Assembly (NCBI RefSeq): GCF_002854065.1 | Contig: NZ_CP024147.1 | Strand: one strand, 5' to 3' | DNA length: 64,000 nucleotides | Source: Escherichia coli | GTDB taxonomy: Bacteria; Pseudomonadota; Gammaproteobacteria; Enterobacterales; Enterobacteriaceae | In this document: one piece after another, positions 59,809 through 64,000 of the stretch | Layout: the number at the start of each line of letters is the position of its first letter | Numbering within the stretch: the first letter of the stretch is position 1 | Notes under the pieces: model-generated | Told to the model about the DNA's origin: nothing | Databases searched by the model: none | The model's input: the letters and a program-made list of their open reading frames with translations, nothing else | Program-made: the position numbers and the translations under genes

Positions 59809-59869
59809 TAATAAAGTTGCTCTCAAAGACGTTAAAAAAGGTGCTCAATGAGCACCTTTTTTCTGTCCG

Positions 59870-60160: not shown

Positions 60161-60626
60161 TGTAAACCTCTTTCGCACGAACCGTAAAAGCCTGGACCAT
60201 ATTAGACGCCAGCTCTTTAAACACGCGACCAAAGGCGAGCTCAATCAACTTATTGGTAAACTCAAAGTCGAGATGAAACTCGATACGACACGCCTCCTGG
60301 CTCAGCGGCGTAAACTTCCATCCACCAATCAATTTCTTGAACGGCCCATCCACCAGATTCATAAGAATACTTTGGTTACTGGTCAACTGGTTGCGGGTAG
60401 TAAACGTTTTGCTGATCCCAGCCTTAGAGACATCTACCGCCGCAGTCATCTGCCCAGGAGTGGACTCCAGAATCCGACTTCCGGTACAACCCGGCAAAAA
60501 CTGAGGATAAGACTGAACGTCATTCACTAACTGATACATTTGCTCCGCGCTGTAGGGTACCAGTGCGGTCCGGCTAATCTGAGGCATAACAATTTCCATC
60601 AACAAAAATCCAACAAATAATATCAT
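60150..60626 (-). CDS. ratA: Ribosome association toxin RatA (SRPBCC/polyketide cyclase-like fold)
   Basis: 158-aa [40 protein letters not shown]... Confidence 0.88.
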
Positions 60627-60757
60627 TTATCCTGCTGTAAAAAAAACGCTATCCCGGCGCTGGGTAACATCGGGTTCATGCTAAGATAGAGCCTTGTCCC
60701 CCGCAGGATTGATATGGGGTGTTTTCGATTTCAGATTACCGATGATTCACGACGCTT

Positions 60758-61240
60758 ATGACGAAGAAAAAAGCACATAAACCTGGTTCAGCGACCATCG
60801 CGCTTAACAAGCGCGCCCGTCACGAATACTTTATCGAAGAAGAGTTCGAAGCGGGACTTGCCCTGCAAGGCTGGGAAGTTAAATCCCTGCGCGCAGGAAA
60901 AGCCAATATCAGCGACAGCTACGTCCTTCTGCGTGACGGAGAGGCATTTCTGTTTGGCGCTAACATCACGCCAATGGCCGTGGCCTCCACGCATGTGGTG
61001 TGCGATCCTACCCGTACCCGCAAGTTACTTCTCAACCAGCGCGAACTGGACTCATTGTACGGTCGCGTCAATCGAGAAGGCTATACCGTAGTGGCGCTCT
61101 CCCTGTACTGGAAAAATGCCTGGTGCAAAGTGAAAATCGGCGTCGCCAAAGGTAAGAAACAGCACGATAAACGTTCAGATATCAAAGAGCGCGAATGGCA
61201 GGTGGATAAAGCGCGTATCATGAAAAATGCCCACCGTTAA
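60758..61240 (+). CDS. smpB: SsrA-binding protein SmpB
   Basis: 160-aa [48 protein letters not shown]... Confidence 0.97.
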
Positions 61241-61454
61241 ACCTGCACTCCAATTATTGACCAGTTCCTCACCGCGCCTCCCTCTCCGGCGGCGCGAATG
61301 AACATCTTATTGGTTATCACATCCGACACAAATGTTGCCATTCCATTGCTTAATCGAATAAAAATCAGGCTACATGGGTGCTAAATCTTTAACGATAACG
61401 CCATTGAGGCTGGTCATGGCGCTCATAAATCTGGTATACTTACCTTTACACATT

Positions 61455-61817
61455 GGGGCTGATTCTGGATTCGACGGGATTTGCGAAACCCAAGGTGCAT
61501 GCCGAGGGGCGGTTGGCCTCGTAAAAAGCCGCAAAAAATAGTCGCAAACGACGAAAACTACGCTTTAGCAGCTTAATAACCTGCTTAGAGCCCTCTCTCC
61601 CTAGCCTCCGCTCTTAGGACGGGGATCAAGAGAGGTCAAACCCAAAAGAGATCGCGTGGAAGCCCTGCCTGGGGTTGAAGCGTTAAAACTTAATCAGGCT
61701 AGTTTGTTAGTGGCGTGTCCGTCCGCAGCTGGCAAGCGAATGTAAAGACTGACTAAGCATGTAGTACCGAGGATGTAGGAATTTCGGACGCGGGTTCAAC
61801 TCCCGCCAGCTCCACCA
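61455..61817 (+). ncRNA. ssrA: tmRNA (SsrA), 363 nt
   Basis: Starts GGGGCTGATTCTGGATTCGACGGG, contains tag reading frame GCAAACGACGAAAACTACGCTTTAGCAGCTTAA (ANDENYALAA*), ends with tRNA-like ...GGTTCAACTCCCGCCAGCTCCACCA. Confidence 0.97.
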
Positions 61818-61862
61818 AAATTCTCCATCGGTGATTACCAGAGTCATCCGATGAAGTCCTAA

Positions 61863-61897
61863 GAGCCCGCACGGCGCAAGCCCTGCGGGCTTTTTTG
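61863..61897 (+). terminator. Rho-independent terminator after ssrA
   Basis: GC-rich hairpin (GCCCGCACGGCGCAAGCCCTGCGGGC) followed by TTTTTTGTG. Confidence 0.65.
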
Positions 61898-62020
61898 TGC
61901 CCTGAATTTGTCCCGCGAAGTCCGAAGAGAACTAATTAAATCCGAACCTTTTAGGCCCATTGATAGGCCCAACGAAAAGCTCTATTGTTTTCGTTGGGCC
62001 TAAACGCATGGAGACTCCCC

Positions 62021-63262
62021 ATGGCAAGAAAAACCAAGCCGTTAACCGATACGGAAATCAAAGCCGCCAAACCTAAAGATGCCGATTACCAGCTGTATGA
62101 TGGTGACGGGCTTACTCTGCTAATCAAGTCCAGCGGTAGTAAGCTCTGGCAGTTCCGTTACTATCGACCTCTGACCAAGCAGCGAACCAAGCAGAGCTTC
62201 GGAGCCTATCCAGCCGTCTCCCTTTCTGATGCGCGTAAACTCAGAGCTGAATCTCGAGCTTTGTTGGCGAAAGACATTGATCCTCAGGAACATCAGAAAG
62301 AACAGGTGAGAAATTCTCAAGAGGCCAAAACCAACACTTTCCGGTTAGTTGCCGAGCGTTGGTGGAATGTGAAGAAAGCCAGCGTAACAGAGGACTATGC
62401 CGACGATATCTGGCGCTCGCTTGAGAGGGATGTTCTCCCGGCAATCGGTGATATCAGTGTCACTGAGATTAAGGCTCATACTTTGGTTAAAGCAGTTCAT
62501 CCGGTTCAGGCCAGAGGTGCATTAGAGACAGTCCGCCGCCTTTGTCAGCGTATTAACGAAGTCATGATTTATGCGCAGAACACAGGCCTGATTGATGCGG
62601 TTCCCAGCGTAAACATCGGGAAAGCATTCGAGAAACCGCAAAAGAAAAACATGCCAAGCATCCACCCAGGTCAACTTCCACAGCTAATGCAGACTATGCG
62701 TACGGCAAGTATCAGCCTGTCCACACGATGCCTGTTCATGTGGCAGCTTCTCACCATCACCCGCCCTGCCGAAGCTGCTGAGGCTCGATGGGATGAGATC
62801 GATTTCGATGCTAGCGAATGGAAAATTCCAGCTGCTCGAATGAAGATGAATCGGGAGCATACGGTTCCATTATCTGATGGAGCTCTCGCTATTCTGGAAA
62901 TAATGAAGTCTCTCAGCGGTGGTCGAGAATTTATCTTTCCCAGTCGCATTAAGCCTACCCAGCCGATGAACAGCCAGACAGTAAATGCAGCCCTTAAGCG
63001 TGCTGGTTTAGGAGGCGTACTCGTTTCACACGGCTTACGTTCTATTGCCAGTACGGCACTCAATGAGGAAGGATTTCCGCCTGATGTTATTGAGGCTGCA
63101 CTTGCTCATGTAGATAAGAATGAGGTACGTCGCGCTTACAATCGAAGTGACTATCTTGAGCAACGACGACCGATGATGCAGTGGTGGGCTGATTTTGTTA
63201 AAGCAGCAGATAGCGGCAGTATCGTGAATAGTGGGGTTAGGGGAATACGTCTTGTAGGATGA
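62021..63262 (+). CDS. intA: P4-type tyrosine integrase (prophage integrase at ssrA)
   Basis: ORF 61985..63262 (TTG start) trimmed to the ATG at 62021 (MARKTKPLTDTEIKAAKPKDADYQLYDGDGLTLLIKSSGSKLWQFRYY...), 413 aa; C-terminal catalytic region with HGLRSIAST...LAH...Y. Position directly downstream of ssrA is typical of CP4-57-like islands. Confidence 0.9.
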   Translation: MARKTKPLTDTEIKAAKPKDADYQLYDGDGLTLLIKSSGSKLWQFRYYRPLTKQRTKQSFGAYPAVSLSDARKLRAESRALLAKDIDPQEHQKEQVRNSQEAKTNTFRLVAERWWNVKKASVTEDYADDIWRSLERDVLPAIGDISVTEIKAHTLVKAVHPVQARGALETVRRLCQRINEVMIYAQNTGLIDAVPSVNIGKAFEKPQKKNMPSIHPGQLPQLMQTMRTASISLSTRCLFMWQLLTITRPAEAAEARWDEIDFDASEWKIPAARMKMNREHTVPLSDGALAILEIMKSLSGGREFIFPSRIKPTQPMNSQTVNAALKRAGLGGVLVSHGLRSIASTALNEEGFPPDVIEAALAHVDKNEVRRAYNRSDYLEQRRPMMQWWADFVKAADSGSIVNSGVRGIRLVG

Positions 63263-63536
63263 ATCCTTTATCAGCACCCATTATGGGTGCTGATAACTCA
63301 CCTATAGGTAATACGGAATTTTACCCTTTGGTTTTCTTTTTTCTAGTAACCGTATTATCGAAAGCCAATTTGATACTCTCAATATTTCTTGACCAGTTTT
63401 TTATAATGGTATCTGCCAATGCATCAGGGCTCATTGTTGATATCCGATATTTTTTACTTTGATTATTAATTTCAAAATTTGGGTGATGCTGCCAACTTAC
63501 TGATTTAGTGTATGATGGTGTTTTTGAGGTGCTCCA

Positions 63537-63812
63537 GTGGCTTCTGTTTCTATCAGCTGTCCCTCCTGTTCAGCTACTGACGGGGTGGTGCGTAACGGCA
63601 AAAGCACTGCCGGACATCAGCGCTATCTCTGCTCTCACTGCCGTAAAACATGGCAACTGCAGTTCACTTACACCGCTTCTCAACCCGGTACGCACCAGAA
63701 AATCATTGATATGGCCATGAATGGCGTTGGATGCCGGGCAACCGCCCGCATTATGGGCGTTGGCCTCAACACGATTTTCCGCCATTTAAAAAACTCAGGC
63801 CGCAGTCGGTAA
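63537..63812 (+). CDS. insA: IS1 transposition regulator InsA
   Basis: 91-aa [46 protein letters not shown]... (zinc-finger + HTH); A6C slippery run TTAAAAAACTC near its 3' end. Confidence 0.93.
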
Positions 63813-64000
63813 CCTCGCGCATACAGCCGGGCAGTGACGTCATCGTCTGCGCGGAAATGGACGAACAGTGGGGATACGTCGGGGCTAAATCGCGCCAGCG
63901 CTGGCTGTTTTACGCGTATGACAGGCTCCGGAAGACGGTTGTTGCGCACGTATTCGGTGAACGCACTATGGCGACGCTGGGGCGTCTTATGAGCCTGCTG
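63731..64000 (+). CDS. insB: IS1 transposase InsB (partial, 5' part; -1 frame relative to insA)
   Basis: From ATG at 63731: [90 protein letters not shown]... open to window end. Confidence 0.8.

What the first reader, a model, noticed from the sequence alone, without database searches (positions are those of the whole stretch)
63268..63296. 13-bp perfect hairpin immediately after the integrase stop codon
TTATCAGCACCCA-TTA-TGGGTGCTGATAA begins 6 nt after the intA TGA. It is a very stable stem-loop with no following U-tract. It could be a 3' stabilising structure, a recombination or binding site, or the edge of a small inserted element. Together with the upstream palindrome, intA is bracketed by strong secondary-structure elements.
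Basis: seen in the sequence. Interest (0 to 1): 0.3.

Follow-up and report, generated by a model that had tools for sequence, protein, structure and literature searches.

The report
Stem-loop ending the intA integrase transcript
The perfect 13-bp hairpin just after the integrase gene is real and conserved, but it is most likely an ordinary stem-loop at the end of the integrase mRNA, not a repeat, recombination site or inserted element.

Summary
A perfect 13-bp stem with a 3-nt loop lies at 63268-63296, five bases after the intA TGA, with no U-tract, and it is far beyond chance.

The window end reads smpB, ssrA (tmRNA), intA, hairpin, then the 3' end of a convergent yfjH-like gene cut by IS1.

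The hairpin is single-copy. It occurs in 37 of 5426 complete E. coli genomes, at one locus each and, in 36 of the 37 rows, under an annotated intA. A covariance model finds it nowhere else in the window or in 529 kb of related loci.

It is conserved at orthologous loci:
- Among close relatives, 25 of 26 stem columns are invariant, against 14 of 24 variable columns just downstream.
- K-12 keeps the outer arms (TATCAGC/GCTGATA) with a compensated inner stem.
- Alleles in Morganella, Providencia, Kosakonia, Erwinia and other genera show changes on both sides at 9 of 14 pairs.
- It follows intA whatever gene comes next.
- Of 79 ssrA-type integrase loci, 37 have a stable hairpin in the first 60 nt after the stop, against 0-4 in controls.

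Best reading: a stem-loop without a U-tract that marks and protects the intA mRNA 3' end, the class described for Rho-dependent transcripts. No RNA data were available. Ordinary; low interest.

The parts
61455..61817 (+). ssrA (tmRNA) gene, the integration target of the island; context only
   Evidence: Rfam RF00023, 295.8 bits, E = 7e-122. A tmRNA gene lies about 200 nt upstream of the integrase in most related loci.
61951..62002 (.). Upstream motif cluster: TTAGGCCCA (61951-59), aTAGGCCCA (61963-71) and inverted TGGGCCTAA (61994-62002). It includes the 15-nt-arm palindrome 61964-62002 and overlaps a promoter-like TTGATA-17-TATTGT.
   Evidence: Spacing is constant in the related loci, while the motif switches with integrase subfamily: TAGGCCCA, TAGGCACC, TAGGTACC, TAGGCATA.
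62021..63262 (+). intA, a 413-aa tyrosine integrase of the P4/CP4-57 type; stop TGA at 63260-63262
   Evidence: ORF. Pfam Phage_integrase, Arm-DNA-bind_3 and Phage_int_M. About 92% nucleotide identity to K-12 intA. Annotated intA in matching genomes.
63263..63267 (+). 5-nt spacer (ATCCT) between the stop codon and the stem
63268..63280 (+). 5' arm of the hairpin, TTATCAGCACCCA
63281..63283 (+). Loop TTA. The central base is hypervariable among close relatives: TTA, TAA or deleted.
63284..63296 (+). 3' arm of the hairpin, TGGGTGCTGATAA
63297..63320 (.). Variable intergenic stretch between the hairpin and the stop of the convergent gene. No U-tract. In the 100 nt after the hairpin, C = 21 and G = 13.
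   Evidence: 14 of 24 columns variable among 10 close relatives
63321..63481 (-). 3' remnant (53 codons plus stop) of a convergent yfjH-like hypothetical gene. It is 292 aa in intact loci and is cut here by IS1.
   Evidence: No Pfam family.
63482..64000 (+). IS1 element, left end GGTGATGCTGCC..., with an insA-like ORF at 63537-63812. It runs off the window.
   Evidence: Homology to the intact locus L001 ends at 63481. An IS1 is annotated at a different point after intA in strain CUWW06. Calling the terminal repeat IS1 rests on my own knowledge of that sequence.

Best explanation
The hairpin is the 3'-terminal stem-loop of the intA mRNA. Transcription of intA runs past the stop codon into untranslated, AT-rich sequence antisense to the yfjH-like gene. 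Because there is no U-tract, release of RNA polymerase is probably not intrinsic. It more likely occurs diffusely downstream, most plausibly through Rho. The 3'-to-5' exonucleases PNPase and RNase II would then trim the tail back to the base of the 13-bp stem. The stem defines a precise 3' end and protects the integrase message. Because the element is a perfect palindrome, the same stem also forms in the convergent yfjH-like transcript in this lineage, so it could cap both mRNAs.

Shown here: the structure, its position, its single-copy status, its conservation and covariation, its association with intA rather than with the downstream gene, and the absence of a U-tract.

Inferred: that it acts as RNA, that termination is Rho-dependent, and that it protects against exonucleases.
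For: 1. The structure is stable and non-random.

2. It is conserved among close relatives. Across 10 alleles from E. coli, Citrobacter, Siccibacter and Mangrovibacter, 1 of 26 stem columns varies, against 14 of 24 in the intergenic DNA just after it (Fisher p = 2.7e-5). The loop centre varies freely.

3. The orthologous K-12 site, L003 2408-2433, is TATCAGCCCAG-CTCT-CTGGGCTGATA. The outer arms match the window and the inner stem is replaced with compensation.

4. Covariation holds across genera. In a 19-allele alignment, 84.8% of cells pair, against 70% in shuffles and 22-44% in slid registers. Nine of 14 pairs change on both sides. The covariation score is 0.45 against 0.20, reached by 0 of 500 shuffles.

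5. The hairpin travels with intA. The next gene is convergent in the E. coli group, but co-directional and 140-700 nt away in Morganella, Providencia, Kosakonia, Erwinia, Buttiauxella and Enterobacillus.

6. The position is generic for this gene family. Of 79 distinct loci encoding intA relatives, 37 have a hairpin of -10 kcal/mol or better in the first 60 nt after the stop. Controls give 4 of 79 (300 nt downstream), 0 of 79 (inside int) and 2 of 79 (shuffles). Unrelated stem sequences occupy the same place, and some are classical terminators with T-tracts, such as L019, L063, L044 and L023.

7. None of the 19 alleles of this hairpin family has 5 or more T in the 8 nt after the stem.

8. Stable stem-loops without U-tracts immediately after genes are the documented 3' ends of Rho-dependent E. 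coli transcripts. They are protected from PNPase and RNase II and show mild C-over-G enrichment downstream (PMC6061677). In the window the next 100 nt have C = 21 and G = 13.
Against: - No RNA 3'-end data for intA were found. The supplements held for two Term-seq papers contain no intA entry, and two other papers have none held as text.
- There is no strand asymmetry. G.U-compatible cells on the intA strand number 13, against 9 A.C cells that would be G.U on the other strand. The RNA level and the sense strand are therefore not demonstrated.
- C over G downstream is not general in the family: 12 of 19 alleles, Wilcoxon p = 0.16.
- A large class of intA alleles has no conserved hairpin after the stop. 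Two lineages, L009 and L076, keep only the 5' arm. The element is therefore dispensable.
- The stems are almost entirely Watson-Crick perfect. DNA-level palindrome correction could produce that without selection on RNA.
- The mid-stem CAGC/GCTG is nearly invariant, which a purely structural role does not require.
Confidence: 0.55

Rival explanations
1. It is a functionless DNA palindrome. It was inherited with the int module and is kept perfect by hairpin-templated (quasi-palindrome) template switching during replication, not by selection on RNA.
For: - The arms are perfectly Watson-Crick in many alleles, with 13, 12 and 19 perfect pairs in the window, L024 and L050.
- G.U cells are no commoner than A.C cells.
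- The loop centre flips TTA/TAA, which are reverse complements, or is deleted among near-identical relatives. This is expected if the palindrome extrudes or switches template.
- The hairpin has been lost or half-lost in some lineages.
- The template-switch mechanism itself is from my own knowledge (Ripley's model; Lovett laboratory work).
Against: - The stem is far more conserved than the adjacent intergenic DNA.
- Unrelated hairpins recur at the same position after the stop in 37 of 79 loci, against 0-4 in controls. That points to a position-specific function rather than drift.
- Template switching explains perfection of the arms, but not persistence or placement.
Confidence: 0.15
2. It is a classical intrinsic terminator, possibly bidirectional, between the convergent intA and yfjH-like genes.
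For: - A strong stem-loop sits in a 58-bp spacer between convergent stop codons.
- Other intA alleles carry true terminators with T-tracts at this position.
- The K-12 allele has a weak TTTCT tail.
Against: - There is no U-tract on either strand. The tails are CTCACCTA on the plus strand and AAGGATTC on the minus strand. The terminator scan does not call it.
- None of the 19 family members has a U-rich tail.
- In most genera the downstream gene is not convergent.
Confidence: 0.1
3. It is a dyad-symmetric DNA site bound by a protein such as IntA, AlpA or a host regulator.
For: - The dyad symmetry is perfect.
- The CAGC/GCTG tetramers are nearly invariant across genera.
- There is no RNA-specific wobble signature.
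Against: - The spacing between the conserved tetramers ranges from 8 to 17 nt among homologous alleles.
- The site is 1.4 kb from attL and lies behind the gene, not at a promoter.
- The true candidate binding sites upstream behave differently: three copies, fixed spacing, and a motif that co-varies with integrase subfamily.
Confidence: 0.07
4. It is a lambda sib-like retroregulator. On read-through transcripts the stem extends downward, pairing the last intA codons and the TGA with 63297-63316. This creates a duplex of about 24 bp, interrupted by an internal loop and a bulge, which RNase III cleaves, destabilising int mRNA.
For: - It lies immediately downstream of an integrase gene.
- In the window and the ABWA45 allele, the extended fold reaches about -34 kcal/mol, against -20 for the hairpin alone.
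Against: - The lower stem is absent in K-12 and Mangrovibacter, and differs in B379.
- Its 5' strand is constrained by coding anyway.
- Unlike sib, the element is not separated from int by integration, because att is upstream.
- The upper 13-bp stem is short for RNase III (my own knowledge).
Confidence: 0.05
5. It is a member of a dispersed palindromic repeat family, or the terminal inverted repeat or edge of a small inserted element.
For: The palindromic shape. IS1 lies 185 bp away.
Against: - There is one locus per genome in 37 E. coli genomes, and one per genome in 364 genomes for the K-12 allele.
- There is no other copy in the window.
- In 529 kb of related loci, every hit with E below 0.01 lies within about 70 nt after an int stop.
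- There are no flanking direct repeats.
- Window and K-12 stay collinear through the outer 5' arm, so there is no element boundary before the hairpin.
Confidence: 0.01

Closest known systems
Protective 3' stem-loops without U-tracts on Rho-dependent E. coli transcripts (Dar & Sorek 2018, PMC6061677)
   Same: An energetically stable stem-loop directly after the gene, with no U-rich tail and no upstream A-tract. In this lineage there is mild C-over-G enrichment downstream. It is not a REP element.
   Different: No mapped RNA 3' end, no test of Rho dependence and no exonuclease data exist for intA. The C-over-G signal is not general across the hairpin family.
Rho-independent (intrinsic) terminator
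   Same: The stem and loop dimensions and the position after a stop codon. Other alleles of the same integrase gene carry real terminators here.
   Different: It lacks the defining U-tract on both strands.
Lambda sib / tI retroregulation of int
   Same: A hairpin downstream of an integrase gene that could influence int mRNA stability.
   Different: The att site is on the other side of int, so integration does not uncouple the element from int. The extended duplex that RNase III would need is not conserved.
REP/BIME and other extragenic palindromic repeats
   Same: An extragenic palindrome that can stop 3' exonucleases.
   Different: It is single-copy and has no sequence relation to a repeat family.

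Membership tests
Intrinsic (Rho-independent) terminator | Stable G+C-containing stem-loop of about 5-14 bp with a short loop | tested here: met
   13 perfect pairs (6 G-C), 3-nt loop, about -20 kcal/mol
Intrinsic (Rho-independent) terminator | U-rich tract immediately after the stem (and an A-tract before it, if bidirectional) | tested here: not met
   The tail CTCACCTA has 2 T in 8 and the preceding TGAATCCT has 2 A in 8. It is not called by the scan on either strand. No family member has 5 or more T in 8.
Protective 3' stem-loop of Rho-dependent transcripts (Dar & Sorek 2018) | Stable stem-loop just downstream of the gene, without a U-rich tail or A-tract | tested here: met
   Criteria taken from PMC6061677.
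Protective 3' stem-loop of Rho-dependent transcripts (Dar & Sorek 2018) | Cytosine-over-guanosine enrichment (rut-like) downstream of the stem | tested here: inconclusive
   Window: C = 21, G = 13 in the next 100 nt. The three other alleles with the same stem that were counted (L017, L027, L004) have C/G of 1.5-2.0. Family-wide, C exceeds G in only 12 of 19 alleles, p = 0.16.
Protective 3' stem-loop of Rho-dependent transcripts (Dar & Sorek 2018) | A precise steady-state RNA 3' end at the base of the stem; read-through on Rho inhibition; a longer tail in pnp or rnb mutants | not testable with these tools
   No intA entries in the supplements that are held
Dispersed extragenic palindromic repeat (REP/BIME-like) or small inserted element | Multiple copies per genome | tested here: not met
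   One locus per genome in 37 and in 364 E. coli genomes. The covariance model finds no other copy in the window or in 529 kb of related loci.
Tyrosine-recombinase core-type site, or operator for a dimeric protein | Inverted half-sites at a fixed distance | tested here: not met
   The CAGC-to-GCTG distance is 8, 10, 12, 13, 16 or 17 nt in homologous alleles.
Tyrosine-recombinase core-type site, or operator for a dimeric protein | Sequence relation to the att core (ssrA 3' end) | tested here: not met
   Local alignment of the hairpin alleles to tmRNA scores no better than shuffles, apart from one allele, L029, at p of about 0.015.
Lambda sib-type retroregulator | A conserved extended duplex formed only on read-through transcripts (an RNase III substrate) | tested here: not met
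   The extended lower stem is present only in window-like alleles and is absent in K-12 and Mangrovibacter.

The most novel reading that the evidence does not exclude
The hairpin family could be a sequence-specific regulatory RNA element in the 3' UTR of ssrA-island integrase mRNAs, not a generic cap. Its near-invariant core, CAGCUC/GRGCUG, matches 6 bp of the tmRNA acceptor stem. In two alleles the match includes the U.G position, and in Erwinia the similarity extends to GGGCUGAU-CUGGA. Such an element might couple integrase mRNA fate to an enzyme or factor that recognises that helix, or act as a sib-like retroregulator. The evidence does not exclude this. However, the similarity was noticed post hoc and is not statistically above shuffles for 11 of the 12 alleles tested.
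Probability: 0.04. Interest if true: 0.6.

Novelty: new member of a known kind. Interest (0 to 1): 0.15.

Why it matters
It matters little beyond annotation. The finding marks the likely 3' end of the intA transcript of CP4-57-type islands integrated at ssrA, and shows that the integrase gene carries its own transcript-end structure as part of the attL-int module.

It is also a clean worked example of how to tell an RNA-type stem-loop from a protein-binding repeat. In the stem-loop, pairing is conserved while sequence, stem length and loop are free. In the motifs upstream of the same gene, spacing is fixed and the motif co-varies with the protein.

If the hairpin does set integrase mRNA stability, it would influence how often the island excises. 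In K-12, excision removes the 3' end of ssrA.

Tried and rejected
- Repeat family or element edge: rejected. There are no other copies in the window at up to 3 mismatches, in E. coli genomes, or by covariance model.
- Known RNA family: an Rfam E-value scan of 60500-64000 finds only tmRNA.
- Canonical terminator: not called by the scan, and there is no U-tract anywhere in the family.
- Strand assignment from G.U against A.C counts: inconclusive, 13 against 9.
- Rut-like C-over-G signal: present in this lineage but not family-wide.
- Extended sib-like lower stem: not conserved.
- Similarity to the tmRNA or att core: not above shuffles except for one allele.
- Published 3'-end maps: no intA entry in the supplements held for PMC7815308 and PMC12207403. 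None are held as text for PMC6061677 and PMC9023263.
- Literature on CP4-57, intA and alpA: no listed title or abstract concerns the 3' flank; the papers were not read.
- Phage records: the closest relatives (85% identity) are unannotated Klebsiella prophage records, so they give no help.
- A consensus structure for the other intA allele class (L007, L008, L086, L087 and others): none predicted.
- Comparison from memory with known operators (LexA, CRP, FNR, Fur, TrpR, LacI-type, DnaA box): no convincing match. No tool was used for this.

Full report
**Observation.** The sequence TTATCAGCACCCA-TTA-TGGGTGCTGATAA occupies 63268-63296 exactly as reported. The intA ORF (62021-63262, 413 aa) ends with TGA at 63260-63262, and five bases (ATCCT) separate the stop from the stem. 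The isolated hairpin folds at about -20 kcal/mol. The 91-nt neighbourhood folds at -35.7 kcal/mol, z = -5.5, and none of 200 shuffles does as well. The tail CTCACCTA has no U-tract, and the consensus scan calls no terminator here on either strand. Only two perfect palindromes with 14-nt arms exist in the 64-kb window. The other, at 59834-59862, has the form of a classical terminator flanked by A6 and T6.

**Context.** The end of the window reads as follows:
- smpB, an ORF at 60758-61240, named from the annotation of the syntenic E. coli loci;
- ssrA (tmRNA) at 61455-61817, Rfam 296 bits;
- intA, a P4/CP4-57-type tyrosine integrase with an arm-binding domain, a central domain and a catalytic domain;
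- the hairpin;
- a 24-nt variable spacer;
- the last 53 codons of a convergent hypothetical gene (stop at 63321-63323);
- IS1 from 63482.

In intact relatives such as E. coli I4 and MS 115-1, the convergent gene is 292 aa and occupies the position of K-12 yfjH. It is followed by alpA, yfjI and yfjJ. It shares about 74% nucleotide identity with yfjH and has no Pfam family.

**Copy number.** The hairpin has no second copy in the window, even at 3 mismatches. A 40-nt query finds it in 37 of 5426 complete E. coli genomes, at one locus each. Each genome is reported as two 'places' because a palindrome matches both strands. In 36 of the 37 rows the match lies under an annotated intA. The K-12 allele is in 364 genomes, once each. 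A covariance model built from 19 alleles finds only this site in the window with filters off; the next best hit is the upstream palindrome at E = 0.24. In 529 kb of related loci, every hit with E below 0.01 lies within about 70 nt after an int stop. The 'repeat family' and 'edge of an inserted element' readings are therefore refuted.

**Conservation at orthologous loci.** The window and K-12 are about 92% identical through intA and into the outer 5' arm. K-12 then carries TATCAGCCCAG-CTCT-CTGGGCTGATA, with the same outer arms (TATCAGC/GCTGATA) and a different but still fully paired inner stem. K-12 also has about 190 extra bases before yfjH.

Ten close alleles were aligned, from E. coli strains, Citrobacter youngae, Siccibacter and Mangrovibacter. 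Across these:
- 1 of 26 stem columns varies;
- 14 of 24 columns vary in the intergenic stretch immediately after (Fisher p = 2.7e-5);
- 12 of 61 columns vary in the end of intA;
- the central loop base is T, A or deleted.

**The wider family.** One scan of species-representative genomes returned 80 loci encoding close IntA relatives across Enterobacterales. Most lie about 200 nt downstream of a tmRNA gene.

Of 79 distinct loci, 37 have a hairpin of -10 kcal/mol or better in the first 60 nt after the stop. Controls give 4 of 79 (300 nt further on), 0 of 79 (inside int) and 2 of 79 (shuffles). The stems fall into several unrelated sequence classes. Some are textbook terminators with T-runs, such as L019, L063, L044 and L023. 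One class shows five consecutive compensated pairs between Pectobacterium (L065) and L066/L067 (Brenneria, Lonsdalea).

The window's hairpin belongs to a class with a CAGC...GCTG core. This class also occurs in K-12, Morganella, Providencia, Moellerella, Kosakonia, Erwinia, Buttiauxella and Enterobacillus. On the 19-allele alignment:
- 84.8% of cells pair, against 70% in shuffles and 22-44% in slid registers;
- 9 of 14 pairs change on both sides;
- the covariation score is 0.45 against 0.20, reached by 0 of 500 shuffles.

In this class the next gene is convergent only in the E. coli group. Elsewhere it is co-directional and starts 140-700 nt away. The hairpin therefore belongs to intA, not to the neighbouring gene.

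**DNA site or RNA structure.**
- Spacing. The distance between the near-invariant CAGC and GCTG is 8, 10, 12, 13, 16 or 17 nt in different alleles. That is incompatible with a rigid dimeric binding site or a recombinase core, and is what a stem of variable length with a variable loop gives.
- Contrast with the upstream element. The palindrome upstream of intA is part of three copies of a 9-bp motif, two direct and one inverted, at constant spacing across the related loci. The motif switches as a set with integrase subfamily: TAGGCCCA, TAGGCACC, TAGGTACC, TAGGCATA. It overlaps a promoter-like TTGATA-17-TATTGT. That is the signature of protein-binding sites. Whether the protein is the Int arm domain or AlpA is my inference. 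The two elements 'bracketing' intA are thus of different kinds.
- What could not be shown. I could not demonstrate the RNA level directly. G.U-compatible cells on the intA strand (13) are not clearly commoner than A.C cells (9). The many perfectly Watson-Crick stems, together with the TTA/TAA loop flip (these are reverse complements), would also fit DNA-level palindrome correction by template switching. That mechanism is from my own knowledge.

**Mechanism.** None of the 19 alleles has a U-rich tail, so this is not a canonical intrinsic terminator. Dar and Sorek mapped hundreds of E. coli 3' ends. They found that Rho-dependent transcripts end precisely just after stable stem-loops that lack U-tracts and upstream A-tracts. 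Those stem-loops show mild C-over-G enrichment downstream, and the transcripts are trimmed back to them by PNPase and RNase II (PMC6061677). A later preprint reports conserved stem-loops at the 3' ends of both terminator classes across bacteria.

The window element fits that description. In the next 100 nt, C = 21 and G = 13, at 34% G+C, in sequence that is untranslated on this strand. The C-over-G signal is not general in the family, however: 12 of 19 alleles, p = 0.16. I therefore assign the hairpin to this class with moderate confidence, about 0.55. The RNA steps are inferred.

**Limits.**
- A large class of intA alleles has no conserved hairpin after the stop, and two lineages retain only the 5' arm. 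The element is useful at most, not essential.
- No 3'-end data for intA were found in the supplements that are held.
- The listed titles and abstracts of papers on CP4-57, intA and alpA do not concern this flank; the papers were not read.

**Leads considered and set aside.**
- An extended lower stem pairs the last intA codons and the TGA with 63297-63316 in the window-like alleles (-34 against -20 kcal/mol). It is absent in K-12 and Mangrovibacter, which weakens a lambda sib-like RNase III model.
- The conserved core CAGCUC/GRGCUG equals 6 bp of the tmRNA acceptor stem, and one Erwinia allele extends the similarity. Alignment scores are above shuffles only for that allele, and the match was noticed post hoc. 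I record it as the most novel reading not excluded, at about 4%.

**Verdict.** The hairpin is real, conserved and single-copy, and it is attached to the 3' end of the integrase gene. It is most likely an ordinary stem-loop without a U-tract at the mRNA 3' end. It is a new, undescribed member of a known kind, and of low interest.

Noticed in passing
window 61951-62002: Three copies of a 9-bp motif sit upstream of intA: TTAGGCCCA, aTAGGCCCA and inverted TGGGCCTAA. They overlap a promoter-like TTGATA-17-TATTGT. Across the related loci the spacing is constant, but the motif switches as a set with integrase subfamily (TAGGCCCA, TAGGCACC, TAGGTACC, TAGGCATA). They look like co-evolving binding sites for Int (arm domain) or AlpA that could autoregulate int.
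   Followed up: partly
window 63281-63283 (loop); alignment A4: The central loop base is hypervariable among near-identical alleles. It is TTA in the window, CUWW06, ABWA45, C. youngae and Mangrovibacter; TAA in MS 115-1, I4, B379 and Siccibacter; and deleted in 0H26. It is the only difference between the window and MS 115-1 across 331 bp. TTA and TAA are reverse complements, so this could be a recurrent minute loop inversion or a transversion hotspot.
   Followed up: partly
window 63268-63296 compared with 61455-61463 and 61805-61817: The conserved hairpin core CAGCUC/GRGCUG matches 6 bp of the tmRNA acceptor stem (5' GGGGCUG, 3' CAGCUCC-ACCA). The Erwinia rhapontici allele (L029) extends this to GGGCTGAT-CTGGA, against tmRNA GGGCTGATTCTGGA. 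Only that allele scores above shuffles (p about 0.015). Probably coincidence.
   Followed up: partly
window 63482-64000: An IS1 copy is inserted in the yfjH-like gene, leaving 53 C-terminal codons; the window ends inside IS1. In strain CUWW06 an IS1 sits at a different point, about 110 bp closer to the hairpin. In MS 115-1 another IS1 lies a few kb further into the island.
   Followed up: partly
L003 2434-2644 (K-12): K-12 has about 190 extra bases between the intA hairpin and yfjH that the window allele lacks. They include a second, imperfect palindrome, ACTGTATGACTGC/GCAGTCATCGAGT.
   Followed up: no
window 59834-59862: A perfect palindrome with 14-nt arms, AAAAAAGGTGCTCA-T-TGAGCACCTTTTTT, with A6/T6 flanks. 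It has the form of a textbook bidirectional intrinsic terminator and lies just upstream of the yfjF (RnfH-family) gene end. It is a useful contrast to the hairpin without a U-tract.
   Followed up: no
L001 16042-20385: The intact island in E. coli I4 carries four adjacent genes annotated as a nucleotidyltransferase-domain protein, a ThiF-family adenylyltransferase, a Mov34/MPN/PAD-1-family protein and a SAVED-domain protein. I read this as a type II CBASS-like defence operon. The related island in MS 115-1 carries a different gene after yfjJ, so cargo behind the conserved int-yfjH-alpA-yfjI-yfjJ module varies.
   Followed up: no
L002 5337-8113; L085 1-3001: In MS 115-1 and CUWW06 a second site-specific integrase gene lies upstream of intA. 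In MS 115-1 it ends a run of hypothetical, S24-peptidase and transcriptional-regulator genes. This indicates tandem integrated elements, presumably at ssrA.
   Followed up: no
L009 3743-3775; L076 3734-3765: Two lineages, Serratia marcescens MSU97 and Xenorhabdus szentirmaii, retain the 5'-arm sequence (CCAGCTCAGA / CTAGCTCAGA) of the hairpin family without a 3' arm. These are decayed copies and show that the hairpin is dispensable.
   Followed up: no
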